From assembly GCA_030704615.1 (NCBI GenBank), contig CM060732.1, forward strand, positions 43,462,001 through 43,526,000: 64,000 nucleotides of DNA. Reading direction: 5' to 3'. Shown here piece by piece: positions 3,201-61,798 of this stretch (its first letter is position 1; each line of letters begins with the position of its first letter). The DNA comes from Takakia lepidozioides. Lineage: Eukaryota; Plantae; Bryophyta. Under the pieces are notes generated by a model. The model had not been told where the DNA came from, searched no databases, and saw nothing but the letters and a program-made list of their open reading frames with translations. A program made the position numbers and the translations under genes.

Positions 3201-3587
3201 CTCGTTCGGCGTTTCCCTCCAACCGCTGAACACTTTGGCAAAGTGGAGTCCGCAAGAATGCTCCAAGCTCGTGTCGGAAGCACCACGGAAGTACCCGATC
3301 CAGGATATGGTCGGGTATTCACAATCATCACTTCCACATCTGCTGTTCATGACAGGACCTACGACATCACGGTTTCCAATTTCCCCAATTGCACATGTCC
3401 TGATTTTGTGAATATGCTATCAACCAGTTTGGGCAAGAGAGGTAAATTCATACCCTGCAAACATTTGTATTTCATATTTTTGAGGAGGATGGTTTGCGAT
3501 CCCAAACGTGACAACTTCATTCACCAGGCCACTATGAGTTTCAACGAGGTCGATACTCTTTTGCAGCGGGATACAACACATGGGTAG
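270..3587 (+). pseudogene. MULE transposase with N-terminal GCM/WRKY-like Zn finger, DDE core and C-terminal SWIM finger; premature stop at 1554-1556; intron 2085-2201
   Basis: ORFs 270-1556 and 1557-2138 are in one frame, split by a single TGA. A GT..AG intron joins them in frame to ORF 2154-3587. Motifs: DGHPW..C.GHLRC.N..C..C..C..H...H.HP, MFDHVK, FMADSAQAN, CLFHW, NLAET, SWIM CTCPDF..CKH. Confidence 0.85.
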
Positions 3588-23550: not shown

Positions 23551-24858
23551 GAGGTCGCCCCCAAGACACATTTCTTGACCTCATTGATGAACCTATTGTC
23601 CGGCCCCCAGGCGGAGGCAAAGTACCAAATGCCTGCCATGAGAACCTGATTGGCAGCCAGGGCTCTTCCAGTGATTGAAAGATGGAGAGAGCCCCAGTAG
23701 GCTAGCTGTTTCTTGAGGGCGTGGATGGTTGGGCCCATTCTCTGATCCTCAGTAAGATTGATGCCAAATGTATGCCCCAGAAGCATAGTGGTTTCGCCTT
23801 CTTTCAGCCAAACCAAGCCCAGGTGTAGTCCCCAGTTTGGAGCCGTTCCTATGGATGACTTGGAGGTATCACCCAGAAGTAAGGCCCTGGTTTTGGACCA
23901 GTCGACTCTAAAGCCAGAGACGGCACAGAATTGCATAAGGGATTGTTCAGCAGCAGCTAAGGTGGATGGGGTTGCCTCAAGAAGAAGGAAAGTGTCATCA
24001 ACAAACATGGAATCCTTGACCTCACACCAATCATTGGTTCTCGGATTTTGAAGCTTCAGGCCCCTAACAGCCCTGTAATTGTCAAGCATATAACCTAGGG
24101 CATCTGCCACAAACAAGAATAGGAAGGGGGCTAGCGGGCAACCCTGCCTAACTGATCTCTGAAGCGGGAAGGCTTTGGAGAGATGACCATTGACCGTTAC
24201 CCTACTTGAGGCTCCCTCTAGAAGGATAGAAACCCATTGGCAAAAACTGGGTGGGAGACCAGCTTTCCGAAGCACTGCGAGTAGAAAGTTCCAGTCCACC
24301 TTGTCAAATGCTTTCTCAAAGTCGAGAAGACATAAAGCCAGGGCCTGGCCTGACTTGGTAGCGAAAGACGAAGCTTCCTGAGCAAGGAGGACATTGTCCA
24401 ACATGTATCTCCCTTTGATGAAGCCTGATTGCCCAGTTCTTATCATGGTCGGGAGCAGCGGTTGGATTCGAAGAGCAAAGGTTTTAGCTATGATTTTGTA
24501 GGCAACATTGAGTAGCGTGATTGGTCTGTAGTTTCCTATGGAGGCCCTATCTCCTTTCTTGAAAAGCAAGGTTATTACCCCCTGTGACATGGATTGAGGC
24601 ATAATTCCAGAGGCTTTAATCCCGTTGGCCATATTGCAGAAGTCGTCCGCAATAGTTGTCCAGACTGCTTTATAAAATTCGACCGGCATCCCATCAATCC
24701 CTGGGACCTTGTTATTACTCATGAGGTCAAGAGCTTTCTTCAGTTCAAGAGCCGTGAATTCAGTCTCCAGGGCTGGGGAGTCATGTGCCTAAAGTTTTTG
24801 CGGGAAGTATTGAAGACAGTCACGTAGGTGGAAGTCATAGTGAGGGTTTTTTGGGTCT
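23551..24858 (-). mobile_element. L1-type LINE, reverse transcriptase part (5'-truncated)
   Basis: ORF 23532-24722 has PGIDG..VEFY, NYRPITLLN..YK, QSGFIKGR, LDFEKAFD, RQGCPLAP, FVDD. It rejoins the 3' part across the MULE TSD. Confidence 0.9.
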
Positions 24859-25859: not shown

Positions 25860-27179
25860 TGAGAGCATTTGCACCGCTTCACCCCAAAGGCCATGCCAAC
25901 GACACTCTTCCAAAAAACTGAGTTCCAATAGTAGCAGTTGTGGGGGCCATTTCTGGAAATATGGTGTCAAGTTAAATAAGCACAGTGTGAAAACAGCTAG
26001 AATAAAACTAGTTATTTGTATTTAACACTTGGATTTAGGTCAAGTGTTAAATCAGGTGTCAAGTTTAGTTTGACACCTGGTCCGTCTTATCTTCACGAGA
26101 GCGGCAGTCGCGCGCTCATCTCTCTCTTTCTCGAGTTGAGCCTGCGCGACCGAGCTCCTGCATGTGTTTAGATTTGAGTGTGCTTATGTAGGGGTACAGG
26201 TTGTTGTGGGGTGGAGTCCCCATAGCTTGGGGTGCCCCTGGCTCGACTACTATTTCTAAGAGTGATGGTTTGGTTTTCATGTTTTGTGTCAACAGTGTGT
26301 TCGTTGGATTTCTATCACTCGAGAAAGATGCTCTCTTACCTGTGAGTGCAAGGTAGGAGTTGAGGGTTAGCACTTGCAAGATTACCTGCGTATAAGTAGT
26401 GATTAGTTTGAGAAGCATATCATTGAATGTGACCACAAGATTCAGCGTGCCCTGAAACGCCTGGAGGATGACGATGCCAGAGCCGCCATTGTTATTGCAG
26501 TTGCTGAAGCTACCAAGTCACTAGAGGCTTTGGGGTACACAAGGAGATACTTAAAAATGCAGCAGCAAATGCTAGTTGGCACCTATGCATGATCCTTGAA
26601 GCTGGATGATCGTTTCACCAGTAAGCTTATAGAGGAGCTCTTCTGGTCTTGTGTGTCATGTCTGAAGGCTTCATTGCATACCACTGATCCTCTTTCAAAG
26701 GAACAACCGCTTGACTGTCCAGGCTTTGCAGAATCAGAAGCTTGAAGTCACAACGAACGATGATGATGATGTGGAACAGTGGGTGGAAGCTTGTCTTCCA
26801 AATTTTTGGCAGCAGATGACACTGCAGCGCGGAAAAGGCTTTGCTCGGAAGAAGGCTCTGATCCAACTAGTTGTGTGTATCTGTGACTTGGCAGAGGACT
26901 GGGCATAAATGACATTTGGTGGGTCTCAAAAGTGGGTCCACATCTGAACGTTGTCACTTGGGGCTGCAAGTTATCGTGATTCAGGGGTGACTCTAACTGA
27001 ATCACCATTGACAAGGACAGTAGTGGCAAGTGCTGTTTAGGGAAGACACCACTGTGGACGACTTGATTCATGTGATAGAAGGCTAAATACAGCAGTGGTG
27101 GGACTAGCCAACAACCGACAAGGCAATCCAGCATGCAGTACCTGGACAGTTTTTTTTTTTTTTTTCAAAATGGATTGCA

Positions 27180-27740
27180 GGGATATCAGCAGATGAGAAG
27201 GCAAGACTGCTACACTGTGTTGTTGTAGGTGGTGGTCCTACAGGGTGGAACTCAGTGGTGAGCTCAGTGACTCATCAGGAGAGACGTCTACGGCTAGTTC
27301 GGCCATGTGAAAGATTTTATCCATGTCACACTTATTGAGGCAAAGGAGATTTTTTTTTCATCTTTCGATGTTCGACTCCGGGAGTACGCGACCAGGCACC
27401 TGATCAAGGGTTTGGAGGGATAAGCTGGAGGGTCTTAAACACATAACTGTTTTCAGACTGGGGTAAAGCTGATGCAAGATGTAGTCAAGGATGTTCTGCC
27501 AGACAAATTAGTGCTTACGGATGGGACGGAGGTGCCATACGGGCTGCTGGTTTGATCAATGGGTTTGGATCTTCTTCCTTTGTCCACTCCTTACCTGTGA
27601 AGAAGTGCCCTGGTGGAAGCTTGGCAGTTGATCCAGTTACTAATGGAAGCCCTACCGCAACAAAGAGTGTTGCTGAGAGACAAGGAAACCTGGGCAAATC
27701 TTTGAACAAGCTGGCACAAGCAGGTGGTGGTCAGGCTGGG
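27180..27740 (+). pseudogene. Captured fragment of an NDA-type alternative NADH:ubiquinone oxidoreductase gene
   Basis: Translation across frameshifts: [75 protein letters not shown]. Intron acceptor remnants are present. Confidence 0.88.
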
Positions 27741-28520
27741 GTCCTTTTGTAGATATTCTGTGGGCCTTTAATGAGCAAGTGATCCAACCATACTCTAAGC
27801 TCAGGCGTTGAGCAGCCTTACAGGTGAATCTATAGGGTCCCGTGGGAACAATTTCTGCAGCTACACAGGTGTGTTAGTGGCCTAAGAACAGCTTAGAAAT
27901 GCTTCAGTGCAAGCCCTGGAAATTGTGGCGTCAATGCCCGTACACGATGGCAACGTTGAGTCAATCATATTCATACACCAAGTGTCTGGTGAGTTCACAG
28001 TCTCCCACTCCATGCTTTCCTGCAACGGGCATTGGCGTACCTGCATCCTGAGTGCCCAGGGTGTACTGATCTGAAGCCTTCTCACGTTCTCCTTGACAGA
28101 AAGGCCAAGACCCGCATCACGACCTTCACATCCCACGCACTACCACAGCATAAGAGCACAGAACGAGAGGAGGGGTGAATCCAGACTGTGAGAACTACAT
28201 GAACATGTGGGAACCCGAAGATAACCAGGGAACAGGAACCAAGACAAATATTTTTTTTTAAAAAAAAAAAAAACCTTTTGATCTAATTTAAATGATTTAA
28301 AGCCTTGGTCATATCTTTGTCAAATGGACTCTGTTTGACTCAGTTTTTGGGGGATAGCTGGAAAGGGAAATCTACCTATCTAGACCTGGTTTTTGTTTTT
28401 GGGACTCTGCTAAAAATCTATGGAATTTTTAGAGTGTGAGTGTGCCATGAAAGATCCACAATCTGTTCTAGAACCTGTGCTGGTCTATATGAGAGACAAA
28501 TCTGTGGATGTACTCCTTGC

Positions 28521-29270
28521 ATGGCTGGGGGAAATGAGGACGTAATTGAAGGGCAGGTCTCTTCTCTTAGCCTGTGCACACAAGGGGACAGGATTTATGT
28601 TTCCCAAGGAACTCAGACTGATTTGAGTGGAGAACAGTTGGACGAGTTGATTGCATACTGGGAGTCAGGCATTAGCAGTAGACAACAGACTGCTGTAGTT
28701 GGCATTGAGGGCCTCAATATCGCCTTGGACAGTCAGAACTCTGTTGGAGCCAGCAGTTCTGCAGCTGTAGGTGAAATACCAAAGTGGGTGAAAGCTAGGC
28801 TTGGAACACAGCCAAAGACAGCCCCGGGGACCAAGGTGTTCAGCCACAAGGCCGTGGTGTACTGGAGCAGAGGAGCAGGAGCTACACAAGTTTGTGCAAT
28901 CAGACATGGTTGCAGCCGGATACGCTCTGCACAGGGCAACCACGAGCGGGGGTTCATCAGCAATGACATGTTTGTTGTGCGTGAAGGAGATGCAGTCATT
29001 CGCAATGAGGACACCCGCAACCGTCTCAAAGCTTTCGAGTTGAGAGACTATCAGACCCTACCTTTGTTTTCTTTAGTGTTCAGTGAGCGGGAGATAGGGG
29101 AGTATTGCTTTGTCTCTACCTGGCAGAAAGAGGAGGAGGGTTGGTTAGAGCGAGCTACTGTAGCTTGGGACAAGGTTAGTGGCAGGTTTCTGGACATAGA
29201 TATACCTCCTACACCTTACCATCATGCAGAGCGAGGCACTTTGAGAGAAGTCTGGCAGTTGATAGCATAG
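28521..29270 (+). CDS. Orphan 249-aa ORF upstream of gag, function unknown
   Basis: Uninterrupted ATG..TAG ORF with globular-looking composition. No motif recognised. Confidence 0.5.
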   Translation: MAGGNEDVIEGQVSSLSLCTQGDRIYVSQGTQTDLSGEQLDELIAYWESGISSRQQTAVVGIEGLNIALDSQNSVGASSSAAVGEIPKWVKARLGTQPKTAPGTKVFSHKAVVYWSRGAGATQVCAIRHGCSRIRSAQGNHERGFISNDMFVVREGDAVIRNEDTRNRLKAFELRDYQTLPLFSLVFSEREIGEYCFVSTWQKEEEGWLERATVAWDKVSGRFLDIDIPPTPYHHAERGTLREVWQLIA

Positions 29271-31922: not shown

Positions 31923-32400
31923 ATGGTGACACCTGGAGTTGTCTTGTTAGACAACCAGGGAGGCATTTTCACTTTGAGTGGACCGGCAGGCAAGAACCGG
32001 CCACTGCGGGTCTTGTTGGACTCAGGAGCTCAGCCACTGATGTTGGGCAGAGCTGCTATTGCAGGTTTGGGCCTCATGGAGGCGGATATGGAGCCTTGTC
32101 CTTTCCAGATACAGACATCTCTGGGAGGATCAGAGCAGGCTCGCGGCATGACACGGCATCAGTTGGCTATTAGACTGCAGCCGGATCATCCTGTAGATGG
32201 CTCAGTGATGCGAGCCAAGGCCATTGTGACAGACGCGGTCTCTTACGATGTCCTCGTTGGTGGGGCAGTGTTATACCCCATGGGCTTCACCCTGGATTTC
32301 TGGGAGGAGTCAGCATCCTACAGGCCTGGATGGCAGTCAGGGGATGGTCGCCGTGCACAGCTCCCTGTGACATTCATTGGGGGTATTGCAGCTGCCCAGC
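31923..32400 (+). pseudogene. Retroviral-type aspartic protease
   Basis: RVLLDSGA active site and downstream YDVLVG motif. Confidence 0.85.
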
Positions 32401-32725
32401 GGGGCAAGATGCCAACACTAGCCGCCTTCACAGCTGCAGTTAGTTGGCCTGGAGAGTTGCTGGAAGGCAATGCCCATGCAGAGGATGTGCCACCTCCAGC
32501 AGCAGGATGACATGCATGGTACGGCGGAGTTGCCTGCCATGGTTGCTCACACTCCGTTGTGGGGTACGAGCAAGGATTTGCAGCAAGCTGCTGATGGACG
32601 GGTGCAACAAGCTTGGGAAGAAGCTTTTTGTACCGTCAGGAGAGGAGGAGAGTGCGGTGATTGCACCAGGGCCACCTCAGTTGTCGCCATTGGACACCAC
32701 ACCTCTTGTGTGGCAGCGGCCGGAT

Positions 32726-33690
32726 GAAGGCATTTGCCTTCTGGACTTGTTTGGCGGGATCAGCACCGGATTGGCTGCTGTGCTACAGGCAGGTGTGCGG
32801 GTAAGGCGTTACCTGTATGTGGAGAGGGATGAGACTGCACGACGCGTCTCACTGCGCCATGTGGCTCAGTTGGTACAGCAGTACCCTGACTTGTTGCCTG
32901 TGTCTGCAGTTCGTGGATACCAACAAGCCTTGCCAGCAGACATTTCCTTGTTGGGGGCGCAAGATTTGGAGCAGGTTGGCTCCATTGATCTGATAGTGGC
33001 AGGTTGGCCCTGCCAAGGGCATTCATCAGCCGGGCATGGCAATGGATTGCGAGACTCGAGGACGGGTCTGTTTTGGGAGATGGTGCGGATTTTGCGCTGC
33101 TTGCAGCTTCATCAAGCTGTATCTCCAGCATACATCTTGGAGAATGTTGATGGGTGATTCTCGGGCCAGGGTGATGGCCAGTGTGCATCAAGTCCGGTCG
33201 TGGCTTGGGTCAGCAGTGTTGCTGGATGCAGCTGCAGTGGGGTCACGGGCTCATCGTCCACGACTATGGTGGACTAACTTGATGCCACCCGTGCTCAAGC
33301 GTGCATTTGATGGGGTGCAGCGGCCAGCACACCTCACCGTGGATGGCATTTTGGACACAGGAAGGCAGTCTCAACGTGTGAGACACGATGACCGTTTCGC
33401 CTTTGGCAGTGGTCAACAGGGTGGGTCAACCACGAGCAGCATTACCTACACTGCTCAGCTTCCCAGGATCCCATGCTTTTCGGGATGGTGGGACCTGGCC
33501 TCTGTGGGATGCTCAGTTGCAGCAGTTAGTGGAGCCTAATGCCGACGAGCGAGAGCGGGCTATGGGTTTTCCACTGGGACCACGGCGGTGCCTTCTCTTT
33601 CTGAGGCATCACGTCGTCAGGTGTTGGGGCAAGCAATGGATCTCAATTGCTTGACCTGGATTGTCAGCTTGGCTATGGCTGAGCAACGTA
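32726..33690 (+). pseudogene. DNMT3-like C5 cytosine DNA methyltransferase domain within the retrotransposon polyprotein (about 3 frameshifts)
   Basis: Motifs in canonical order: I LDLFGGI, II YVERD, III ADI, IV GWPCQGHS, V DSRTGLFWE, VI ILENV, VII LDAA, VIII AHRPRLWWTNL, IX ERERAMGFP, X RRQVLGQAMDL. Confidence 0.93.
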
Positions 33691-33965
33691 GAGTGCGGAG
33701 TGCACTTCCCTTGACGGTCTCTCTGCCTACCGAGACGGTACAGGCAGCGAGTGGGGGCGAGCCGGTGAGGACCACGAGGTGTAGACATCCATGGCACACG
33801 TGGGAGGTGCTCGAGGTTCAGAGGGAGTTGGCAGCGAAGGCAGCTGTGATGGATGAGGTTGGGGATTCTTCTCGGGATGAGGAGGTTCTCAATGATGAGA
33901 TGATGGGGCAGGATGAGGCCTTGTCATTGACTGAGCAGGAAGGGGGTACTGCTCAAGAGGTTGCA

Positions 33966-33977
33966 GCATAGCAACCA
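33966..33977 (+). promoter_or_regulatory. Putative stop-codon readthrough signal GCA-TAG-CAA-CCA between DNMT and RT
   Basis: TAG at 33969-33971 is in frame with both flanking domains and followed by CARYYA. The same context occurs in the second copy at 36732-36743. Confidence 0.75.
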
Positions 33978-36193
33978 CGGGACGCGTCCTCTACCTCTAA
34001 GCCCACTGGACTTAAGGTTGCAGTTACGGAGGACAATTGGGAGCCTGACATTGGACCCATTGTCACCGGAGGAGAGAGACGACGTATACGGCGGTTCCTG
34101 AGGGCTTACAGGAATTGCTTTGCCTTCAGTTTGAAGGACTTGGGAGCACTGAAGGGTCAAGAGATCCGTATTGAGTTGGCCACTGACACGCCAATCTTTC
34201 GGAGACCCTATAGATACAGTGACATGGAGAGGTCTTTGATTCAGATGAGGACTCAAGATCTCTGGGAGGCAGGTTTGGTGGAGCTCTCTGGTGGAGAGTA
34301 TGCTTCAGCCACAGTGATGCCAGCTAAGAAGGATGTCTATGGCAATTGGACGGAGAGACGTATGTGCGGTGATTACCGGCCTGTAAATCGTCAGACCAAG
34401 TCCGATAGGTATGCCATGCCAACACCAGAGGAGATCTTTGATGCCATTGGGCATTCCAAGGTCTTTAGCACGTTGGATTTACGATCCGGATATCACCAGT
34501 TGCCGATCAAGGAGGCGGATAAGCAAAAGACGGCATTCTGGGGGATCAATGAGCACGGGAAGGATTGCCTATACCAGTGGCGGTTCTTACCATTTGGGCT
34601 TAAAAACGCTCCCGCTGAGTTTCAAAGAGTCATGGACAGGATTCTAGCAGGGGTGGAGTTTGCTCGGTGCTACATAGATGACATCATCATCTTTAGTGCT
34701 ACGGTGGAGGAGCATGAGAGACACCTTCAGGGGGTATTTGAGCGCTTGAGGACGCACGGATTGAAGTTACATCCGGGCAAGTGCAAGTTTTTCCACAACC
34801 ATTGAGTATCTGGGTCACATGATATATCCTGGAGGATTGGGGGTACAGCAGACTAAGGTAGAGTCCATTGCACAGGTTCCACGCCCCACGGATGTGAGCC
34901 GAGTTCGAGCTTTCATGGGGTTAGCAAACTATTACAGACGGTTTGTTAAGGGATTTAGTGCCATTGCAAAGGCTCTAACCAAGCTGACCAAGGTGGACCA
35001 GGAGTGGCAGTGGGAAGATGAGCAAGAACAAGCTTTTCAAGAGCTCAAGGCGAGGTTGACCTCGGCGCCCATCTTGAGACGACCTATCAGGGGCGTCCTT
35101 TTCAGCTGCATACAGATTGGAGCATGCTGGGGCTTGGAGCGGTGCTCACACAGGTGGATGATGAGGGAAGAGAGTTCGTAGTGGCTTATGCTAGCCGCTC
35201 GAACAATGCTGCAGAGTCTAAGTATAGCTCATATGAGGGAGAATGCTTAGCTGCAGTGTGGGCCGTGGCACACTTCAGGTGCTATCTATACGGCAATCTC
35301 TTCACCCTTGTCACGGATCACCAACCACTCAAGTGGTTGATGGAGTCAGACAAGCTTACGGGGAAGCTTGCACGGTGGGCACTCATCCTTCAAGAGTATG
35401 ACTTTCAGGTGGTGCATCGACCGGGTTTGGTCAATCGAAATGCAGATGGGTTGAGTCGCAATCCATGCACGAGCCAGCAGGATGACACTGGAGCTCGGTG
35501 GCATGGTGAGACGGACGAGGAGATGGTGCCCGGATGGCATGCATCTGCATTTCTGTGTATCTTGGCAGCGGAAGGCCAGGTTGGACCTACAACAGGGATG
35601 ACTGTAGATCAAGTGTCTGAGGACCCTGAGGCCAGCAATGAGCAGGTGGCGCCAAAGATATACATGAGGATTCAGTTGTGTTGGACTACCTCCGCAGTGG
35701 AGACACGGCAGCCACTATGACTGCCAAGGAGAGGGATCGGATCCTACAACGAGCCAAGAGGTTCAGGTGGGAGGGGACACACCTGCTCCGAGTGTGGGAG
35801 GATGGTCGAGTGAGGATTGTGCCTCACCCAACACAGCGGGCACGGTTAGTGCGGCATGCCCATGAGGAGTTGGGGCATTTTGGGGTGCGACGCACTCATA
35901 GTCTACTGCAGGGGCAGTATTGGTGGCGTGGTATGCACACAGAGGTGCAACAATTTGTGGCTAGGTGCATGGTGTGTGACAGGGTGCGTGCTTCATTCAA
36001 CGCCCCTACTCCACAATTGCACCCTCTTCCGATCATGGGATTGGGCTACAGGTGGAGTCTTGACTTCGCAGGGCCGTTGCCACTGACCATGCGCCACAAC
36101 AAGTACGTGTTGGTGATGGTGGAGCACTTCTCCAAGTGGATTGAATTGGTTCCATTGCCTGATAAGGCTAGTGAGGGAGCTGCGTATGCATTC
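33972..36193 (+). pseudogene. Gypsy RT, RNase H and integrase N-half (copy a)
   Basis: RMCGDYRPVN, LDLRSGYHQL, LPFGLKNAP, YIDD; HTDWS..GLGAVL, YEGECLA, TDHQPL; HHCC (HAHEELGH..CMVC), LDFAGPLP. Confidence 0.92.
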
Positions 36194-39100
36194 ACCACGA
36201 GCAGCACTACCTACACTGCTCAACTTCCCAGGATCGCATGCTTTCCGGGATAATGGACCTGGCCTCCTGTGGGATGCTTAGTTGCAGCAGTTAATGGAGC
36301 CTAATGCGGACGAGTGCGAGCGGGCTATGGGTTTTTCCATTGGGACCACGGCGGTGCCTTCTCTTTCTGAGGCATCACGTCGTCAGGTGTTGGGGCAAGT
36401 GATGGATCTAAATTGCTTGACCTGGATTATCAGTTTGGCTATGGCTGAGCAACGTAGAGTGCAGAGTGCACTTCCCTTGACGGTCTCTCTACCTACCGAG
36501 ACGGTACAGGCAGTGAGTGGGGGCGAGCCGGTGAGGACCATGGGGTGTAGACATCCATGGCACACGTGGGAGGTGCTCAAGGTTCAGAGGGAGTTGGCAG
36601 CCAAGGCGGCTGTGATGGATGAGGTTGGGGATTCTTCTCGGGTTGAGGAGGTCATTAAGGATGAGATGATAGGGCAGGATGAGGCCTTGTCATTGACTAA
36701 GCAGGCAGGGAGTACTGCTCATGAGATTGCGGCATAGCAACCACGGGACGCGTCTCCTACCTCTAAGTCTGCTGGACTTACGTTGCACTTATGGAGGACA
36801 ATTAGGAACCTGACATTGGACCCATTGTGACTGGAGGAGAGAGACGACGTATACGGCGGTTCCTGAGGGCTTACCTGAATTGCTTTGCCTTTAGTTTGAA
36901 GGATTTGGGAGCACTGAAGGGTCAGGAGATTCGTATTGAGTTGGCCACGGACACGCCAATCTTTCGGAGACCCTATAGATACAGTGACATGAAGAGGTCT
37001 TTGATTCAGATGAGGACTCAAGATCTCTGGGAGGCTGGTTTGGTGGAGCTCTCTGGTGGAGAGTATGCTTCAGCCACGGTGATGCCAGCCAAGAAGGATG
37101 TCTATGGCAATTGGACGGAGAGACGTATGTGCGGTGACTACCAGCCTGTAAATCGTCAGACCAAGTCCGATAAGTATGCCATGCCCACACCTGATGAGAT
37201 CTTTGATGCCATTGGGCATGCCAAGGTCTTTAGCACTTTGGACTTTTGATTGATCCCCCAGAATGCCGTCTTCTGCTTGTCCGCCTCCTTGATCGGCAAC
37301 TGGTGATATCCGCAAGGTTGAGAGAGTCCATTTTCTTGACTTTGTTCTAACTCATATATTAAAAAAATCCATAACGTCTTTTTTCATGGATTGTGACAAT
37401 TCCTTATGGACTTTTTAAAAGTCCATAGCATCTAGAGATTTTGGTTTTTGATAATGAGATTTAAAAGTGTGAAAGTATATATAGATGAGCCTCTATATAT
37501 GAGTCCCTTTTTATTGATGACATTGTCATGTAGGAGTATGATAATTTACCACTATTCTATATCTGGGAAAAACAATGTTGTGACAGCAAAAAATGGTGCC
37601 TATATCAGTGGCGGTTCTTACCATTCGGGCTTAAGAACGCTCCTGCAGAGTTCCGAAGAGTCATGGACAGGATTCTAGCAGGGGTAGACTTTGCTCGGTG
37701 CTACATAGATGGCATCATCATCTTTAGCGCTACGGTGGAGGAGCACGAGAGACACCTTCAGGTGGTGTTTGAGCGCTTGAGAGCGCACGGATTGAAATTA
37801 CATCCGGGGAAGTGCAAGTTCTTCCACAACCAGATTGAGTATCTGGGCCATATGATATATCCTAGAAGATTGGGGATGCAGCAGACTAAGGTAGAGACCA
37901 TTGCACAGATTCCACGCCCCACGGATGTGAGCCGAGTTCGAACTTTCATGGGGTTGGCAAACTACTATAGACGGTTTGTCAAGGGATTTAGTGCTATTGC
38001 AAAGGCTCTAACCAAGCTGACAAAGGTAGACCAGGAGTGGCAGTGGGAAGATAAGCAAGAGCGAGCTTTTCAGGAGCTCAAGGCGAGGTTGACCTCGGCG
38101 CCCATCTTGAGACGACCTATCAAGGGGCATCTCTTTCAGCTGCATACAGATTGGAGCATGTTGGGGCTTGGAGCGGTGCCACATAGGTGGAGGATGAGGG
38201 AAGAGAGTTCGTAGTGGCTTATGCTAGCCGCTCACAACATGCTTCAGAGTACTAATTATAGCTCATATGAGGGGAGTGCTTAGCTTGCAATGGGGGGCCG
38301 TGGCACACTTCAGGTGCTCTCTATATACGACCAATCTCTTCACTCTTGTCACGGATCACCAGCCACTTCAAGCGTTGATGGGGTGTCAGTACCAAGCTTA
38401 TGGGGAAGCTTGCATGGTGGGCACTTATACTCCAAGAGTATGACTTTCAGGTTGTGCATCGACCGGGTTTGGTCAATAGGGATGCGGATGGATTGAGTCG
38501 CAATCCATGCACGGCCAGCAAGATGACACTGAGCTCGGTGGCATGGTGAGACAGACGAGGGGGAGATGGGTGCTATGATGGCATGTTGCATCTGCCCTTT
38601 TGTGTATCTTTAGCATCGGGGTAGGTCAGGTTGGACCTACAACAGGGATTAATGTAGACGGAGTGTCTGAGGACCCTGAGGCAGTGATGAGTCATGTGGT
38701 GCCAGAGATATCCATGAGATTCGGTTGTATTTGATACCTCCGCACTGGAGACACGACAGCTAGTGTGACTGCCAAGGAGAGGGATCGGATCCTGCACAAG
38801 CTACGAGGTTCAAGTGGGAGGGGATACACCTGCTACGAATGTGGGAGGGTGGTCGGGTGAGAATCGTGCCTCACCCAACCCAGCGTGCACGGTTGGTGCG
38901 GCATGCCCCATGAGGAGTTGGGCATTTTGGAGTGCGACGCAGTCATAGTCTCTTGCAGGGGCATTATGGAGGCGTGGTATTCCATCTAGGGGCAAACAGT
39001 TTGTGGCTAGGTGCATGGTGTGTGACGGGTGCGAGCTTTCTCCATTCAACGCCCCTACACCACAATTGCAATCTTTTACCCATCATGGGATTGGGCTACA

Positions 39101-39760
39101 GGTGGAGTCTTGACTTCGCAGGGGCCGTTGCCACTGACGATGCGCCACCACAGATATATGTTGGTGATGGGGTGGAGAACTTCTCCAAGTGGATTGAGTT
39201 GGTTCCATTGGCCTGACAAGGCTAGTGGAGGGGGCTGCGTATGCATTCCTGGATTTTGTGCTTAGCCGATTCGGTTCTCCAGCTGAGGTACTCACGACCC
39301 AGGGAGAGAGTTCTTGGGGGAGTTTTCAGGCTTTGTGTATAAGCCTTGATAGACCACCGTACCACTTCTTTGGGATCATCCTGAGTCCGATGGCTTGGCA
39401 GGAGAGAGTGGTTCAGACAGTGAAGAGGGGTTTGCGCAAGTATGGCTTGCAAAATTGATACCTAGGAGATTGGGATCTTCAGGTGCCTTGGTTAGCATGG
39501 GCTACAGGTTTAGCAAGCAAGCATCACTTGCCTCCTTTTCACCATATTTCCTTCTTTTTGGCCAAGAGCCGGATTTGCCTGCATCTATTCGCAGGGAGGC
39601 TGCAGTAGTCCTCAACCTTGATGATCCGGAAGTGTGGACACAAGCATGCGCCCAACGGGCAGAGTTGTTCAAGAGAGTCATGCCTATGGCTTTTGAGAAT
39701 CTTGCTATTGCCCAACACCGATACACATTGAGGTATGCCACTATACGTGGAGTTGGATAT
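36194..39760 (+). pseudogene. Second, diverged copy of DNMT C-terminus, RT, RH and IN (copy b), degraded
   Basis: At 36193/36194 the integrase (AAYAF) jumps back to sequence homologous to 33429 onward. The integrase core continues to RYATIRG at 39760. Many indels after 38200. Confidence 0.9.
37313..37596 (+). mobile_element. AT-rich insertion in RT copy b, possibly one end of a DNA transposon/MITE
   Basis: Interrupts RT, begins CAAGGTTGAGAGAGTCC, and abuts a 63-bp inversion. Confidence 0.5.
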
Positions 39761-40297
39761 GTCCACACTGCTTGGGATAGTGGCAGTGGATATGACTAGT
39801 GGCAGCCTAACAAGACATGGGAGGGGGGCCAAGCCACTAGGAGTCCAATCCCGAGATCTCAGGCTCAAGTCACAGGTTGCAAGACGGCGACTAACGATGG
39901 GGCAACTCTTGTACCCGGCCCTCTTGATCTATCGATTTTGAGTGTAGTAGGAATAGCGTTGGAGGACTTAGTGAGGCTATGACCACTATCACATTTTGTG
40001 GCTACCTGGACTTAGAGGGACCTAAGCGCCAGCTAGGGGGGCGATTGTGATGGACTAGTGGCAGCCTAGTGATGGATTAGTGGTGGCTAGTGACAGCCTA
40101 GTGCTAGACTAGTGGCTGCACTAGTGGTTGCTAGTGGCAGCCTAGTGGTTGGACTAGTGGCTGCACTAGTGGTGGCTAGTGGCAGCCTAGTGGCTGCACT
40201 AGTGGTGGATTAGTGATAGACTAGTATTTGGTGTGCAATGTTGTTGTGTGGTTGTGGACAATAATATAGTTGTGTAGCGATATGTATGCGCACGACA
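39761..40297 (+). mobile_element. 3' end of a different LTR element: polypurine tract plus ~250-bp LTR (40046-40297) with CTAGTGG tandem repeats
   Basis: AGGGGGGCGAT directly before TGTGATGG...GCACGACA (TG..CA). The 3' portion is homologous to 61720-61798. Confidence 0.6.
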
Positions 40298-43200
40298 CTC
40301 CTCCTCCCTCAGGAGTAGGAAGTGGACCATCCGGCGTTGGAGCCGGTACCACCTGAGCTGTGACCATGGCATCGAGCCTATGCTCTAACTGCTGAAACCG
40401 GTTGGCCATACCTTGGCCACCACCCTGACCTCCGCGTCCTTGGCCATGTTGAGCTTGCCCTTGGCCTGCACCTCGTGCCTGGCCACCTCGTCCTCTCTGG
40501 GCTGCTCTACCTCGCCCCCGGCCACCATTGTTCCCTTGGAATTGGCCTGGGCGCAACTCAGGATGCGAACCATAGCATTGGGCCTCTCCATGCCCATACT
40601 TGCCACAATGGCCACACTGCAACTGTGCCAGTGCCAAACCATTGCCTCCGTCTGGGCAATCCTTCTTGACATGGGGTCCTCCACATGTCCAGCACACCAC
40701 ATCCGCCCATTGTTGGCCAACAAATGAAGGCTGAGACCCCTGCATCTGAGGTCCTCTCTGCCTTCCCTGGGCTTCACCTGAGCCCCCTTGTTGCCTTGAG
40801 CACATTGAGGTAGTGGCTGGCTAAGAGCACCACTACCCTGTGGTGCCTCCTTAGCAAATCCCACCATGACCACTCGTTCCTCCACCATGTTGAGCTCTAT
40901 CCGCTCTGCCAGCAAAAACACATTTGCTAAGGTGGGTTGGGCCGCTTGTAGGAGAGTTGTATCCCGTACCCTTCTCCTCAGCTCCTTGTTCAATATCCCG
41001 TACCAGAACTGGACTGCCTGAGCCTCCGTAACCCCTTGGGTTACATTAATCAAGAGCCTCATGCGAGTGAAAGCCTCCCTCAAGCTCTCAGTAGGCTTCC
41101 TCTGGAACTCTTGCAAGCTCCTCAACTTCTCTGTCCTCACCCCTGGTAGTTCCTTCTCAACTCTTCGAAGAACTCCACAATAGGGTTGAAGGCAGGCACG
41201 ACCACTAGTGCTGGTGCAGTAGTAGCTTGGGTGGACGTCGTAGTTGTTGTACCACTAGTCTCACTACTGCTCGTGGAAGCTGCTGTTGTAGCTGCTGCTG
41301 CGGTGGTGGCTGCTGCCCTTGTGCCTCTAGTGATGGAGACATAGTCGGGTGACCAGTATATTTTCCACTCCTCGATCTCAACATCGTGCCCCCGCCTAAA
41401 CTCATGGTAATCATCCATGGGTGGCCCCTCAAGGTGCTAAAACAGCCCCTTCCATGCCATAAAAAGCGTAAACAGTTGTGGATTGCGCATTTGCTGCAAG
41501 TCATACCAACTATCAAACTCTTGATAAAAATCATCCAACTCAATGGTGCCCACCGCCCCAGAGTACCTACGTGGCCCCTTGGTGGCTCCATACATCTCCT
41601 CCATTGTGACCCACAACAATGGCAAGGAAACAACTTGCACCGCCGGTGCGAGCCCCCCTGATTCACAATCCGAATCAGACCTCCATAGAAAGACACATGA
41701 GGTGAAGGTGGCCTAAACCGCACACCTCGTCTCGTATACCCACTAGTATCGCTAGTGCTCGTACCGACACTTTTCCCAGCAACTAGTGGCACCTCCGTGT
41801 TGACAAACTGACACTCAACGGTCATGAACATGTCCCTAACCACCCCCTCTCTACAAGTAACCCGTAGAGAACCTGATGCGGCTTATGGTTTGGAATACTA
41901 GGTTCCTAACATAGCCTGCACCACACACTGCATCCACCACAGGCACTCCTATGGTTGGCTAGTCATCACCTCCAACCTCACCACAAGAGAAACAAAGATG
42001 GTCTGACTGGTCATCAACCCAGCCTCACCATCGACAGCATGCTCTAGGGTTGGATCGGCGATCAAGCCCAAGTCAACCACCTATAAAATCAAGTGGCCCG
42101 CACACAAAACTAGCCATGGCGCACAATCAAGCATGAAGGTGTGGAGGGGATCCAAACACAAGAATGAAAAGCAACAACTCCCCCCAGACCAAAACAACTC
42201 CCATGTGTCGATCCTGCAACCCAGCCCAAACCTGGACCGACTCTTGCCTCCCCCTACGGAAAGGTCTCGGCCTACAGAGAAGGTGGAAAGCTACAAGGAA
42301 AGGAAGCTAAAGCAATGCCTATCCCCAACACGTTCTCATCCCAACACCTTTTTTTTTCCTCTCTTCTCTCACTTGCATGACCATGAGAGCATCCTGTAGA
42401 CACTCCTCAAACCGCCCTCCACGAGCTCATGAAACTTGGCCTCCAAGGCCCCATGCAAGCCTCCACAGGGTCCGCTAGTGCCTCCTTACGTCCACCAGCC
42501 ATTCCTCAGAATGGAACCACCCCAGGAAACCACACCATTCGTTGAAGGTTCAAAAATGGAGCAAATAAAGGTACATATAGGCCCCAACAACATTCTGTCC
42601 AAAGGAATTACCTGCAGGCTGGTCTCCCCCATAATTAAGAATTGGGCTGAAAACCAGAAAAGATTACCTGCAGGGGAGTAATCCCCTTTGTTAAAACGCA
42701 AGGGAGGCAATTCCGACTTTTCTGCCGGATTAGCTAGCTCAAAACCGTTGTTCTTCAGAGCCCAACCTCCCCATCAAGGTCCCACGAAACGAGTGAAAAA
42801 AGATATATATATATTTCACTCTGCCTGTTCGCGGCTTTCTGTGGCTCCAACCGCCACGACTCCTCACGGTCCGCCCTAGGCACTCGTTGGCCACGGGCTG
42901 CCTCGTGATACCCCGTGGTACCACTCCCACGAGCCTTCACGGCCCGCCATTCCCACGATCTAGTCATCGTGCCCACCCGTTGTGTCTGCACCACGACTTC
43001 CAACGGTCACGGCAACAGTCACGACCTGGGCTCGTGGTATCTCGTGATACCGCCCCGACGGAACATCACGACCACTATTCTCTGCGTTCCCTGGAACTCC
43101 CAACGAGTTTTTATGCGTTCCCGGACGTTCCTACGCGTTCCCACGCGTTCCCGAGCTGGGGTTTGCTCTTGCACCTGTTGCCGCCGAGCTATGGCTTCTG

Positions 43201-44299
43201 TGAAGCCACCAGACCTGCTGTCATGCTCTCTTGGTCTCTCACGACCCACCGGAGGCACCCTAAACTCAACAAGCAAGCAATATGCTACCCAACAAGCTCC
43301 ATTTCTTCATAAAACTCACAAAAACGAATCTGAAAATACACACATTTACAAACTTGGTGCACCTGCACTTCTCACGCATATCCCTTGGCTCTAGGGCGCC
43401 TCGTTGCTGCCCTTCCAGCCCCGCTCTTGCCACTCCAAGAGCCCTTACACTGTTGAGTTTCAGATTAAAGCTCCAACTTATTTGCATACAAGAGGGACCA
43501 GCCCCCTCTCTTCACTCATACATCTTCATGAGCTTGGAGCTGAAGCTCCCAACGGGCTGCGATGCATCCCCTCGCAGCTCCACCATTCGGCTGTTCCTCA
43601 TCTACCCGCAACAACTAGTTTTGAGCAGAAATACCTGGAGCTGATCATATCATCTCCAACCTGCAACACGCTAGCTTCCCATGCGCAGCCCACATTTCTG
43701 CAGCTTCTCAACTCGGCCTGCAACTGAAGAAGATGACCACAGTTCGTCCACTCGTGGCTAGCATCTTCTCCGCTTCACACTGAACCGCATACTCAGTTGC
43801 CATAATGTTGAGCTATGCAACACTGACTGCCTCTCTATCCATTGCAAACCTGCAACCTGTTCGTCTTTGCACTCTATCCGCTTTGGATAGGCTTATGCAC
43901 GGATCCCTGCACTCTAGGCTGAACTGTTTCTCATGATCTGAAAACACAAGTGCTACAACTAACTCGAACCTGACACTCACAAACTCGAGCTGATATTTCT
44001 CGAGTGATAAAGAAAGGAATGATACAAGCATACAAGCTCTCTCAAACTCACACACTTGCACATGAAAACATCACTCATATATTAAGTCGAGCCAAGTGTA
44101 CCCCACGCCATGGGGAATCCACACTACGGCGCCATAGCTAGATGCGGTGAGGCTCAACTCGAGAAAGATGAGCCCACCGCGATCTGCCGTGAAGATAACA
44201 ACGCCAGGTGCCCAAACATATATTGGTCCCTGGATTGATACTTGGGTCAATCCCAAATGTCAATATATAAAAGCTAGCTATTTCCTAGCTAACTTCACA
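40298..44299 (-). mobile_element. Related Gypsy copy, 5' region plus gag only
   Basis: Minus-strand gag (MEEMYGATKGPRRYSGAVGTIELDDF, both Zn knuckles). Blocks 41915-42240 and 43950-44299 are homologous to 29380-29700 and 25986-26380. Confidence 0.87.
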
Positions 44300-47200
44300 C
44301 TAGTTGTAAAATAACTGGACATGTACATCTGTGGTGTAGAAGCGTGGAATGAAGCATGTATCAAAATGTATCGCAAGTGCTTATGCTGATAGATAGATAA
44401 TGTTTGTTTTTGCAAGGTTTCATAGTCCATAATTAAAAAAACAACAAAGATAAGCTCAAGTCTCCCGATGACCAACAACACTGCCACACGATGAAACTAT
44501 ACATCGTTGAGTGAAGAGCATATTGGACCTGATCCCTTTACAACGCTATTGGAATGCGCAAATGCATAGCCCTAGCCCCAAACATCCAAAGTATCTATCT
44601 AGAGCCAAGCTAATATTGCAAGTGCGGATGTAGGGATAGAACCGTTGTCATAGCTTGGTTAGAAACCCTTGACATGTATGTTAATGGCGAGTAAGACCCC
44701 TTATGCAAGCAAACATCTGACCATATCCGACTCAGTGGGGAAGATGAGACGGTGGGCCTTTGGAAAAAGAAGGTTGTAGAAGATTTGGAGGGACAAAATA
44801 ATGAGCACTCTCGTGGGGATAGTGCGTCCGCTGCCGAGAAGGAGGTGGAGAGCCGAGAGCCAAGGAATCGAATGAAGTTATAACTTGCAAAAACGAAAGG
44901 TGTGAGAATGTTCTTGCAATGAAACCCCACAAAGGAAAGAGAAGACCCATTGATACCCATCATTGTCTGGTCGTTTTGAATGTGTGCTATTGTTGTTATC
45001 TACATCCATCAAGTTCCCATTACCAGAAAACACCTAGCCGGTACGATTCTCAAATGGATCCCACAAGTGCATATTTCCATATCTGGGAAAGGTGAGGATG
45101 CTGGTGGTATCATGCACTGAACCCATATTGCAGGTTACTTGCAGGTTACTTTGATGATGTAGGCATATCTGAGAATTGTGTGGTTAACATGAATGCTTGA
45201 CAATAGAGGACAGGACACATCAATGAGGGCTTTCCCCCTTCTTCCGGATAGAGCCCACCCCTCAAAGGGTCAGTACCCGCAAGGGGAAGAGGCTCTTATT
45301 TGTGCTAGCTTCGGTTGGCGTCATATATGTATATCCCCCTTCTTATTCTAAATGGTGCATGACAATGGCCAAGCTCTCTTGGATTTTTTCACCTGCCTGC
45401 TGGCATCCCCCTTCCTTTAGATGGGGTCTGGTTTAGCCTGGTTCTTTTGAAACCCATTGTGTGGATGCTTTTGGAGGTCCATTTGTGGGTCCCCCTCTCT
45501 CTCTACCACTATGAAGGGTTTTGTTTCCTAGGAAGGAAGGGATCTGTTTTACCTCTCCGACTCGTTCAATGCCTCTCTCATTGGAGGGATCAGAATCCGG
45601 GCCCATTCGAAGAGCAAAAGGAGGCACGGGACAGAGAAAATGAGCTTGTTGTTGATTTACTTTGACCATGTTGCAGTCTAAAAGAGACACTGTAATGAAA
45701 AGTGCGTGCTACAAGTCTGGTAGGTCCGAGGAGATGGAAGCTGTCCACGGGCCCCAAAGATTGTCGACCAAGAAGTATGCCACAAACAAGCAGCGACGGG
45801 GATAAGGTGATGAGACTGTTTTGAATAGGAGCCACAGAGGACATGCACAAAGCATCAACCACTCCACATGGCTTGTGACAAGTGTTTGCAGCCAACAAAG
45901 ACTTTTTTTTTACCTCAAACTATCTTACACATGTCGCCCAACACCTCAAGGAAGTCGGCCGATTCCTCTCTCGGAATGAAAAGATATATGCGCCGGCTAA
46001 ACCTGTCATGGTTGCCATGTGGGAGGAGGTGGAAAGAGATTGCAAAGGAGCAGATAATTACCAATTCGGGACATCTTGTGGAGCACACCAGTCGTTTAAT
46101 CGATTTCAACCTGACCTCATGAGAAGTTTAGCTACACTTAGGGTTACACAATCTGACATGTGGAGTACAGTATTCATTGGGTTGCATCACGGATAATCCA
46201 TCACATGTTTTGCATCCATGATTCTTTTGCACTTCACAGAATTGTATCCAAGCGGGAATATACTAGAGTCGGTAGCCTGAGAACAATCAGCACCTCCTCG
46301 CAACGACGACAAAAGTGGAAATATCTCTCACAAGTTGCAGGGCCAAGTTGCATGTTATTCAGAAGCTCAACTTTTGAAGCGTTGATTGCGGTGCGAGAAA
46401 GGTGTCCTATCCCTGCAATAGTGCACTTGCACAGCGCAGACACAGATTTGTACTCACTGCAGCAATCTCCTCGGGATCAAGTATGCTGCACGGATAGGCT
46501 GCCTTTGCACAAGAGGTATCACCTAAAAGTAGTCAAGTGTGGCAGCTTCCACATGCTCAAAGCAAGCCACAGTGTCATAAAGTGCACCACTTTTCCAAGC
46601 AGCTTGTGCATCTCCTGAGGATTTCTGGAAGCTCCAGACTGGCCATAAACACAAACTTTGATCGGATGAGAACTGTGGCCTGTATATCCTTGAGTTAGGT
46701 GCACATGGTTACCTCCGTAACGGTACACAGTGGCCCTTCACATGAACGTGCAAGATAATCATGTTCTACCTAACAAAAGCGAAAGTATCGAATAGCCTCG
46801 CCACCACTGGGTACGTGGGTCATCTTTACTGTAATGGAGAGAAGAGAAGACTTAGGAGTACAGCCCCGCTATGAAAATGCTCGTCTTTAGAAAAGTGTCC
46901 TACTCTAACATGATGCTTGCATAGCGTGTTAAGCTTCTAGATTTGAAGAGGTAATGCAGAGAACCTGAAGAGGTAGATTTGAAAAGCTACAGGGTATGTC
47001 TGAAAAGGCAAAAGAGAAGAACACATGCGGACCCACCAGGCTTGGATTGAGGGACTTAAGTGGGTTTTGGCCAATGACATTGTTTGATTTCACTCTCCGA
47101 GATTATATTAGTGTTGGAAATGTGCATGCAGAAGACAAGTAGGCCAGTTCTTTTGGAGGGGCCAAGTTTATCGGGAGGGAGGGAGGGAGGGAGGGGCCCA

Positions 47201-55318: not shown

Positions 55319-56083
55319 CTATGCAGCACAAGACCCATCTCCCAGACTCTCGTCGGAGACTATCTCCGGTCCTCCATCGTTTGCAAGCCGCTGTCGAAGG
55401 CGTACCAACTCCTGCGTCATGGCCCACAGCCGCTGCTGCAAAGACAAGTTCTCCTCCTCCAGTTGAGCGATGTGGGTTTCCTGCTGCCCAACCGGCGAGT
55501 CAGCCGTGAAGAGGATCTCAAAGCGCTGCAGACCATGGTCGATTCTTTCCTCCACCTGTTCAACACTATCTGCTGGCGGCCGCCCACACTGATCGGTGTC
55601 GCTCTCCCCACAAGATGATGAACCCGAGTCTCGCTCAGCATCATCTGCGCGAAGCCGAATCCGACCGTTCATGGAGCCGTATGCATTCACCCCGAGGTCG
55701 TTGGCCACCTGCCCATCCCTTAGAGATTCTTGCGGCCATGTTGCAGGCGAGATCACAGGTGTGGCTAGCGCTGGAGTTGCTGGGGACAGCAACGGCGCGT
55801 GTATGCCCAGCTTGCCAGCCCTCATCAAATACGAGCTCGTGTTGTAGGGTGCACAAGGAACCCTCGTCATGTGCTTCCTATACTTCCTGCTTCGCGGCTT
55901 GTGTCTGCGAGGAAGAGCGTGCAGCACACCCCTGGCATGCGCAGGTGCATAGAACCCCGGCGTTGGCTCCCAGTTCCGTCGCCACTCTTTCTTCCCATAC
56001 GATGGTGCCAGATTTGTCCCAGGATCGCCGCCTCCTGGAATCAATTGCACCACCCAACCATCTCTCTTTGCAGGAAAGCCCAT
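55319..56083 (-). CDS. PRLI-interacting factor A-like protein (HEXIM-like layout)
   Basis: Basic patch, APYNTSSYLMRA, SPATP..TP..SP, GVNAYGSMNGRIRLR, ERIDHGLQRFE, C-terminal coiled coil (LEEENLSL). Confidence 0.8.
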   Translation of the reverse strand: MGFPAKRDGWVVQLIPGGGDPGTNLAPSYGKKEWRRNWEPTPGFYAPAHARGVLHALPRRHKPRSRKYRKHMTRVPCAPYNTSSYLMRAGKLGIHAPLLSPATPALATPVISPATWPQESLRDGQVANDLGVNAYGSMNGRIRLRADDAERDSGSSSCGESDTDQCGRPPADSVEQVEERIDHGLQRFEILFTADSPVGQQETHIAQLEEENLSLQQRLWAMTQELVRLRQRLANDGGPEIVSDESLGDGSCAA

Positions 56084-61631: not shown

Positions 61632-61798
61632 TGTCAAGAGGATTTTAAATAGTTAAATTAACTAGTTCACTAGTTAATGTGAAACTAGTAAGTTACTAGT
61701 TAGTATGAAAATATTGTGGCAAACTAGTGTGTGGTGTGCATATGTAATGTGTGGATTGGACAACGATATAGTTGTGCACGATATGTATGCACACGACA
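61632..61798 (+). mobile_element. Short solo-LTR-like remnant
   Basis: TGTC...GACA ends and ACTAGT repeats. The last ~80 bp are homologous to 40220-40297. Confidence 0.45.

What the first reader, a model, noticed from the sequence alone, without database searches (positions are those of the whole stretch)
31923..36193. Ty3/Gypsy retrotransposon carrying its own DNMT3-like cytosine methyltransferase between protease and RT
Seen: all ten C5-MTase motifs in canonical, non-permuted order (so not DRM-like), with catalytic PCQ, ENV and RxR intact, placed between LDSGA (protease) and RT. The C-terminal part recurs at the same position in a second diverged copy, so it belongs to the family rather than being a chance insertion. 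Motifs VIII-X (AHRPRLWWTNL; ERERAMGFP..T....SEASRRQVLG) resemble DNMT3 (AHRARYFWGNL; EMERVFGFP..T...SRLARQRLLG). Known: DNMT-carrying retrotransposons have been reported in Symbiodinium dinoflagellates and a charophyte alga (de Mendoza et al. 2018), with self-methylation of cDNA proposed. Inference: the neighbouring genes are land-plant type, so this lineage may persist in embryophytes, and the enzyme may pre-methylate cDNA inside the particle.
Basis: partly seen in the sequence, partly recalled or inferred. Interest (0 to 1): 0.95.

Follow-up and report, generated by a model that had tools for sequence, protein, structure and literature searches.

The report
Moss retrotransposon with Gag-fused DNA methyltransferase
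This is a broken copy of an abundant moss jumping gene that encodes its own DNMT3-like DNA methyltransferase, a kind of element described from a green alga; here the enzyme lies in the capsid (Gag) reading frame ahead of a conserved, likely leaky stop codon, so it is likely made in large excess over reverse transcriptase and likely methylates the element's new DNA copies.

Summary
Confirmed. 31923-36193 is a frameshifted Ty3/Gypsy copy, protease-DNMT-RT-RH-IN, in a moss (host gene 63% to Ceratodon). The DNMT is DNMT3-like by profile (E 3e-29) and by the fold of a relative (TM 0.72 to DNMT3A). Relatives with this order occur in Marchantia, Calypogeia, Sphagnum, Closterium and Mesostigma. The domain is under purifying selection (dN/dS 0.08-0.21 between subfamilies) and tracks the RT tree. 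It is a land-plant variant of the KnitGypsy-Dnmt3 kind (de Mendoza 2018), including A-coding-B-A-B split repeats. This scan found the family before on other DNA (10 notes).

New here: the DNMT is not in Pol proper. An in-frame TAG-CAA-CCA (33969; again 36735), matching the TMV readthrough signal UAG-CAR-YYA, separates Gag-protease-DNMT from RT-RH-IN. Stop plus CAR-YY occurs in 36 of 41 related loci, across lineages with unrelated flanks. One 7.2-kb frame (L069) has no other stop. So the DNMT is likely made at capsid stoichiometry and RT by readthrough.

Untested: enzyme activity, readthrough, cDNA methylation. No Klebsormidium sequence was retrieved.

The parts
25965..26400 (+). 5' terminus (repeat A), begins TGTC like 25 relatives
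   Evidence: high summed depth; right edge approximate
26400..28250 (+). Low-copy insert in the 5' region with host-gene-like pieces, including a type II NADH dehydrogenase-like fragment near 27180-27760
   Evidence: depth falls about 100-fold here; weak PDB hit E 0.005; translation
28440..29270 (+). 276-codon open frame of unknown kind upstream of gag, high-copy
   Evidence: no Pfam match; not found in loci L018-L097
30006..31920 (+). Gag with CCHC-like knuckles and linker to protease; several frameshifts
   Evidence: weak PF03732 E 0.0013; 55% to Marchantia P0161 over its first 357 residues
31923..32507 (+). Aspartyl protease (LDSGA 32016-32030)
32720..33700 (+). DNMT3-like C5 cytosine methyltransferase, motifs I-X in canonical order, three frameshifts
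33969..33977 (+). In-frame stop with TMV-type context TAG CAA CCA ending ORF1
34041..35091 (+). Reverse transcriptase (YIDD 34671-34682), one frameshift near 34800
35094..35480 (+). RNase H
35669..36193 (+). Integrase N-half, truncated at the junction with copy 2
   Evidence: loose ends at 36193
36194..39770 (+). Second, 5'-truncated copy (DNMT C-part, same stop at 36735-36743, RT with an internal inversion/insert at 37249-37590, RH, IN), heavily frameshifted in its 3' part
40035..40297 (+). Polypurine tract (40035-40041) and repeat B ending CACGACA
40298..44321 (-). Related element on the minus strand, 5' end and gag only (74% identical)

Best explanation
This is a broken copy of a moss Ty3/Gypsy retrotransposon whose first reading frame is Gag-protease-DNMT3-like methyltransferase and ends in an in-frame UAG-CAR-YYA stop that is likely read through at low frequency to make RT, RNase H and integrase, so the methyltransferase is likely packaged at capsid stoichiometry and likely methylates the element's own cDNA before integration. 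Shown: the domains, their order, the stop and its conservation, purifying selection on the DNMT, split terminal repeats with TG...CA ends and 4-bp target duplications in relatives. Inferred: readthrough (about 0.8); protease release of the DNMT and its packaging (about 0.7); catalytic activity on cDNA (about 0.6). The benefit is open; most likely new copies arrive already methylated like host DNA.
For: Architecture protease-DNMT-RT in Marchantia, Calypogeia, Sphagnum, Closterium and Mesostigma and metagenome loci. DNMT3A/B are the top PDB matches by profile and by fold of relative L019 (pLDDT 96.8; TM 0.72, E 2.7e-19). In alignment A3, catalytic Cys is kept in 62 of 63 rows, the ENV Glu in 61 of 63 and the RxR Args in 56 of 61 and 57 of 59. 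DNMT dN/dS is 0.08-0.21 in 9 between-subfamily pairs. RT and DNMT trees give largely the same groups. Stop: 36 of 41 loci of the window's RT clade or close to it have TAG/TAA followed by CAR-YY; exact CARYYA in the window (twice), L019, L068, L069, L074 with three different hexamers; background 60 of 19,486 TAG/TAA triplets. L069 is a single frame of 1369 + 1047 codons with that one stop. Database gene calls from Marchantia, Calypogeia and unnamed sources end at the matching place. CAR YYA after UAG is the TMV signal, 6-10% readthrough in stable Arabidopsis lines (PMC2754532 passages). Summed depth over the DNMT equals that over RT in the host's DNA runs.
Against: No activity data; KnitGypsy-Dnmt3 showed no methylation in yeast (PMC5890265). 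CpG o/e of the element (0.53) is no lower than that of other mobile and host sequence in the window (0.37-0.64), so composition gives no sign of self-methylation. The commonest subfamily among the loci has CAA CCC ATG (5 of 6 matches, followed by an ATG), which would also allow re-initiation. Related subfamilies have no stop (9 of 13 distant loci; P0048, P0225, P0289), so high DNMT dosage is not essential to the whole group. In Tca2 a suggestive stop context failed to direct readthrough (PMC2194720). 22 of 63 relatives have ECQ instead of PCQ, with unknown effect. Trees are quick searches without host DNMT3 sequences.
Confidence: 0.58

Rival explanations
1. The DNMT is made with Gag because it serves as a nucleic-acid-binding or structural particle protein, or it shields the internal att-like B|A junction and the cDNA from the element's own integrase. 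Marking new copies for the host is incidental.
For: Capsid-level dosage far exceeds what methylating one or two cDNAs needs (inference). The family has an internal palindromic CA-nn-TG junction that looks like two joined integrase ends. The same DNMT group also sits in DIRS-like polyproteins next to a Dam-like domain.
Against: Catalytic residues are almost invariant, which argues for catalysis. Stop-less subfamilies make the DNMT only in a single long frame.
Confidence: 0.17
2. RT-RH-IN is expressed by splicing, re-initiation or an internal promoter, not by readthrough; ORF1 is still Gag-protease-DNMT.
For: An ATG two codons after the stop in the Sphagnum-type subfamily. Marchantia and Sphagnum gene models that join DNMT to RT skip this region (P0172, P0182, P0200, P0216). 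Tca2 precedent.
Against: No ATG follows the stop in the window, L019, L068, L069 or L074. The frame is kept across the stop. Three different hexamers all fit CARYYA. The gene models are predictions whose DNA I could not see.
Confidence: 0.13
3. The enzyme acts mainly in trans on integrated copies or host chromatin, as a self-limiting brake or by re-patterning host methylation.
For: Proposed as a possibility in PMC5890265. Copy number is very high in this moss.
Against: No targeting domain is attached to the DNMT. Non-flowering plants have their own DNMT3 with DUF3444 (PMC6453930).
Confidence: 0.08
4. The DNMT is a neutral passenger or an assembly chimera.
For: This copy is broken and joined to a second copy.
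Against: Same order in five named genera and dozens of loci; low dN/dS; even depth along the element.
Confidence: 0.02

Closest known systems
KnitGypsy-Dnmt3 of Klebsormidium nitens (de Mendoza et al. 2018, PMC5890265; parts 1-5 of 7 read; Fig. 4c and the main supplementary PDF not seen)
   Same: Gypsy domain set, non-rearranged intronless Dnmt3-type domain, purifying selection, DIRS-like repeat arrangement (A-coding-B-A-B).
   Different: Land-plant host. There the DNMT is described as part of the Pol ORF; here it ends ORF1 and is separated from RT by a conserved in-frame stop. Direct sequence kinship was not tested because no Klebsormidium sequence was retrieved.
SymbioDIRS-Dnmt3 (same paper)
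   Same: Retrotransposon-borne Dnmt3; split repeats; two such enzymes methylate CG de novo in yeast.
   Different: DIRS RT and tyrosine recombinase there; Gypsy RT, rve integrase, TG...CA ends and 4-bp duplications here.
TMV-type UAG-CAR-YYA readthrough; in-frame-stop retroelements SIRE1, Tca2, MuLV (PMC2754532, PMC2194720, passages read)
   Same: In-frame stop controlling the ratio of two products; context matches the TMV consensus.
   Different: Those stops lie at gag/pol or pol/env; this one lies inside the usual pol, after protease and DNMT and before RT.
Host DNMT3 of non-flowering plants (PMC6453930, passages read) and animal DNMT3A/B
   Same: Catalytic fold and motifs (TM 0.72 to DNMT3A for relative L019).
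   Different: About 21% identity to DNMT3A; no DUF3444 or PWWP/ADD match found; embedded in a polyprotein.

Membership tests
Ty3/Gypsy LTR retrotransposon | Gag, protease, RT, RNase H, integrase in that order | tested here: met
Ty3/Gypsy LTR retrotransposon | TG...CA ends and target-site duplication | tested here: met
   4-bp duplications in 3 of 3 relatives with both ends seen (L040, L070, L092). The window's composite has the ends but no duplication.
Ty3/Gypsy LTR retrotransposon | Two identical LTRs and a tRNA primer-binding site | tested here: not met
   Repeats are split (A ... B or A ... B-A-B). No TGG primer site seen by eye after A in L070 or L092; no tRNA search was run.
DNMT3-type C5 methyltransferase | Motifs I-X unpermuted, catalytic Cys, ENV, RxR; closest to DNMT3 by profile and fold | tested here: met
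DNMT3-type C5 methyltransferase | Branches within the DNMT3 clade in a tree with host DNMT3, DRM and bacterial enzymes | not tested
DNMT3-type C5 methyltransferase | De novo DNA methylation activity | not testable with these tools
   needs an assay
KnitGypsy-Dnmt3 kind | Intronless Dnmt3-type domain in a Gypsy polyprotein | tested here: met
KnitGypsy-Dnmt3 kind | DIRS-like A-coding-B-A-B repeats | tested here: met
   complete in L070 and L092; B|A junction in 9 of 19 loci with enough 3' DNA. The window itself shows A ... B only.
KnitGypsy-Dnmt3 kind | DNMT under purifying selection | tested here: met
KnitGypsy-Dnmt3 kind | DNMT in the same open frame as RT | tested here: not met
   same frame but interrupted by a conserved stop in the window's clade; met in the stop-less sister groups
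KnitGypsy-Dnmt3 kind | Common descent with the Klebsormidium elements | tested here: inconclusive
   no Klebsormidium-labelled protein among named hits; only 30 of the 150 hits were looked up
TMV-type readthrough site | In-frame UAG followed by CAR YYA, conserved | tested here: met
TMV-type readthrough site | Measured readthrough | not testable with these tools
   needs a reporter, ribosome profiling or proteomics

The most novel reading that the evidence does not exclude
A green-lineage Gypsy radiation, thousands of copies strong in some bryophytes, has moved its main recoding point downstream of a captured DNMT3. Each particle would be loaded with an active methyltransferase at capsid stoichiometry, and the element would integrate by cutting an internal palindromic junction of a circular, pre-methylated cDNA, giving A-coding-B and A-coding-B-A-B insertions. 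New insertions in mosses and liverworts would be born methylated, independent of host de novo pathways.
Probability: 0.3. Interest if true: 0.82.

Novelty: new variant of a known kind. Interest (0 to 1): 0.6.

Why it matters
It extends DNMT-carrying retrotransposons from an alga to mosses and liverworts, including the model Marchantia, where annotated genes such as Mp4g09160 and Mp8g17980 are Gag-protease-DNMT frames. That makes the open question from 2018, what the captured enzyme does, testable in a tractable plant. The conserved stop predicts that the enzyme is a stoichiometric particle component, not a minor Pol domain, which narrows the mechanism. It also warns that such genes can inflate DNMT counts in bryophyte annotations.

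Tried and rejected
No whole genome is held for this window, so copies could not be counted directly. Viral contigs gave 17 loci, all weak matches (31-51% over parts of the query), and were not used. Single-sequence folding of the L069 DNMT failed (pLDDT 33.5); the alignment-based model of L019 was used. CpG/CHG depletion does not single out DNMT-bearing elements. No shared RNA structure was evident 3' of the stop in six sequences (by eye). No RNA holder was listed. Runs X5 and X6 are only guessed to be RNA, no silent control was laid, and X5 has no cover at 33071-33421, so expression is not shown either way; X5 record 21 does span 33597-35765 with 3 other letters and 4 gaps. Conservation of the stop among the host's own copies remains unexamined. 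The careful RT tree did not finish; quick trees were used. A DRM-type enzyme was rejected (motif order, lower scores). Algal contamination was rejected (moss-like host genes; the same runs hold a host gene and the element). A PDB search for the second NADH-dehydrogenase-like piece found nothing. Literature searches that found no report of such elements in land plants or of this stop. The library lacks most subscription journals. PMC12344493 mentions DNMT3 in LTR Copia and DIRS elements of 'streptophytes' without detail in the passages seen; its figures were not visible.
Full report
Observation. The region holds, on the + strand, Gag (from 30006), an aspartyl protease (LDSGA at 32016), a C5 cytosine methyltransferase (32720-33700), RT (YIDD at 34671), RNase H and the first half of an integrase. 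All ten motif-like blocks of the methyltransferase are in canonical order, but over four frame segments; the copy is broken as assembled. At 36193/36194 it is joined to a second, 5'-truncated copy that is 93% identical over its first kilobase and runs to a polypurine tract at 40035 and a terminus CACGACA at 40297. Whether that junction is biological or an assembly product is not known. Many breaks lie at short runs of one base where family contigs differ from the window by small indels, and contigs of another sample (X5) are nearly identical apart from such gaps, so some breaks may be assembly errors; this was not resolved.

Host. A neighbouring single-exon gene matches mosses best (Ceratodon 63%, Sphagnum 56%, liverworts and a lycophyte at most 54%). 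The runs that hold another host gene also hold the element. Summed depth is 188,683 and 223,814 over the two DNMT bins against 141,908-209,324 over the three RT bins in X1, where single contigs have depth about 20-35. The tool warns that this is no copy number and that X1 may be the source sample. I read it only as a very abundant family in which the DNMT is as common as RT.

The enzyme. A profile of 63 family sequences finds DNMT3A first (E 2.7e-29), DNMT3B next, DRM-type enzymes at 5e-16 or weaker and HhaI at 8e-10. The model of the unbroken DNMT of relative L019 (69% identical to the window over motifs I-VI) has pLDDT 96.8 and matches DNMT3A at TM 0.72. The catalytic Cys is kept in 62 of 63 rows, the ENV Glu in 61 of 63 and the second RxR Arg in 57 of 59. 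Of 16 pairs tested for dN/dS, 3 were saturated for the DNMT; 9 between-subfamily pairs gave 0.08-0.21 (several with dS above 2, so rough), and 4 pairs of close dead copies gave 0.37-0.75, as expected for decay after insertion.

Distribution. The N-half of the DNMT finds 64 longer proteins, up to 78% identical, including gene models of Marchantia polymorpha, Calypogeia fissa, Sphagnum troendelagicum and S. fallax. A full HMMER scan found 2821 representatives at E 0.001; 30 of the 150 listed were looked up, giving Calypogeia, Closterium, Mesostigma and Scenedesmus. Metagenomes gave 472 stretches encoding a relative, of which the best 80 were kept; where the contig is long enough they show protease-DNMT-RT. 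These loci were selected on the DNMT, so they do not measure how many family members lack it. Quick RT and DNMT trees of 54 elements recover largely the same groups. The window falls with L019, the Marchantia models and the Sphagnum-type loci (DNMT support 98; RT clade of 16 rows, support 97). L076 and the L080 group are placed differently in the two trees. Chlorophytes carry the DNMT after RNase H instead. No Klebsormidium-labelled sequence appeared.

The stop. Both window copies have GCA TAG CAA CCA in frame between the DNMT tail and RT. I examined the 54 of 80 loci with an RT start downstream of the DNMT. Of 41 in or near the window's RT clade, 36 have TAG or TAA followed by CAR-YY 18-25 codons before RT. 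Of the other five, two have a tyrosine codon there, two have the stop displaced by an insertion and one reads TAG TAG CCA. Of 13 distant loci, 9 have no stop in that range and 4 have unrelated stops. Many rows are near-identical copies and not independent. The informative cases are lineages with saturated synonymous sites and unrelated linker sequence: the window and L019 (CAA CCA), L068/L069 (CAG TTA) and L074 (CAA TCA) all fit CARYYA exactly, while the Sphagnum-type group has CAA CCC. The background rate of CARYYA after TAG/TAA in the same DNA is 60 of 19,486. L069 is one frame, 1369 codons of Gag-protease-DNMT and 1047 of RT-RH-IN-PHD, with that single stop. Gene calls P0161, P0167, P0171, P0206 (Marchantia), P0168 (Calypogeia), P0163, P0181 and several unnamed 1330-residue proteins end at the matching place; their DNA was not visible. 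UAG-CAR-YYA is the TMV readthrough signal and gave 6-10% readthrough in stable Arabidopsis lines (PMC2754532, passages). In-frame stops are known in SIRE1, Tca2 and MuLV at gag/pol or pol/env (PMC2194720, passages). Searches of papers and of this scan's notes found no report of this site; note e1-9524379 describes a TGA upstream of a methyltransferase-Pol gene in another element, a different position.

Ends. L070 and L092 show A-coding-PPT-B-A-B. Among 19 loci with enough 3' DNA, 9 show the B|A junction, 8 end after one B, and 2 are unclear. Elements start TGTC and end GACA, with 4-bp duplications in L040, L070 and L092. The junction is a near-palindrome CA-nn-TG. The paper's legend gives KnitGypsy-Dnmt3 DIRS-like repeats, and note e1-7304403 had mentioned split repeats. 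One reading, untested, is that B+A is the LTR and integrase cuts circles at the B|A site.

Mechanism. Shown: domain order, the stop and its conservation, selection, fold, termini. Inferred: ORF1 yields Gag, protease and DNMT together; a minority of ribosomes read through to RT-RH-IN; the protease frees the DNMT inside the particle; it methylates the cDNA before integration. The analogy is SymbioDIRS-Dnmt3, which methylates CG in yeast; the Klebsormidium enzyme did not, a result the authors call inconclusive (PMC5890265). Composition gives no support: CpG o/e 0.53 in the element against 0.37-0.64 in other window sequence. Stop-less sister groups show that high dosage is not universal.

Literature seen. 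PMC5890265: parts 1-5 of 7, passages, a term search of 3 supplementary files; the figure and the main supplementary PDF were not available and may show domain order or further taxa. PMC12344493: passages and one supplement search. PMC6453930, PMC11982613, PMC2754532, PMC2194720: passages. Searches found no description in land plants.

Verdict. Real, and a new variant of a known kind. The kind is published for an alga and this scan has noted the bryophyte family at least 10 times (8 notes shown). What this window adds is the conserved readthrough-type stop, which puts the methyltransferase in the Gag frame, and the exact terminal structure. Interest 0.6.

Noticed in passing
window 26400-28250: Low-copy insert in the element's 5' region made of host-gene-like pieces, one resembling a type II NADH dehydrogenase (E 0.005), with poly-T/poly-A runs near 27151 and 28255; looks like captured mRNA fragments amplified with a subfamily (depth still above single copy).
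   Followed up: partly
window 28440-29270 (+): 276-codon open frame upstream of gag, high-copy in the host, no Pfam match, absent from the 80 metagenome loci.
   Followed up: partly
proteins P0041, P0157 (Scenedesmus), P0265 (Monoraphidium), P0291, P0292 (Chlamydomonas eustigma) and many unnamed: A second Gypsy architecture, RT-RH-DNMT-IN-PHD, in chlorophytes; it forms its own group in the DNMT tree (22 rows, support 95).
   Followed up: partly
proteins P0037, P0116, P0140; P0095, P0146: The same DNMT group occurs in polyproteins with a divergent RT plus a Dam-like adenine methyltransferase (DIRS-like, two methyltransferases in one frame) and in RVT_2 (Copia-type) polyproteins; hosts unnamed.
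   Followed up: partly
L027, L031, L046, L069, L070, L074, L081, L090, L092: Internal B|A junction is a near-palindrome CA-nn-TG resembling two joined integrase ends; 25 of 25 listed 5' ends (some the same insertion) start at A with no B before them.
   Followed up: partly
L057, L071: Tyrosine codon at the position of the conserved stop; tyrosine is what plants insert at TMV-type UAG. May be simple mutation.
   Followed up: no
alignment A3: 22 of 63 relatives have ECQ instead of PCQ in motif IV.
   Followed up: no
window 61723-61798: A further fragment resembling the end of repeat B (84%).
   Followed up: no
window 252-3584, 4605-7524, 10416-12653, 19145-24788: Other mobile elements: SWIM-domain (Mutator-like, label recalled) transposases, an open 746-codon hAT transposase frame, and a LINE; an 88-bp tandem array at 21838-22759.
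   Followed up: no
window 48657-51116 (+), 55322-56083 (-): Host genes: EDR4-type zinc ribbon protein and a PRLI-interacting-factor-like protein whose best named match is Ceratodon (63%).
   Followed up: partly
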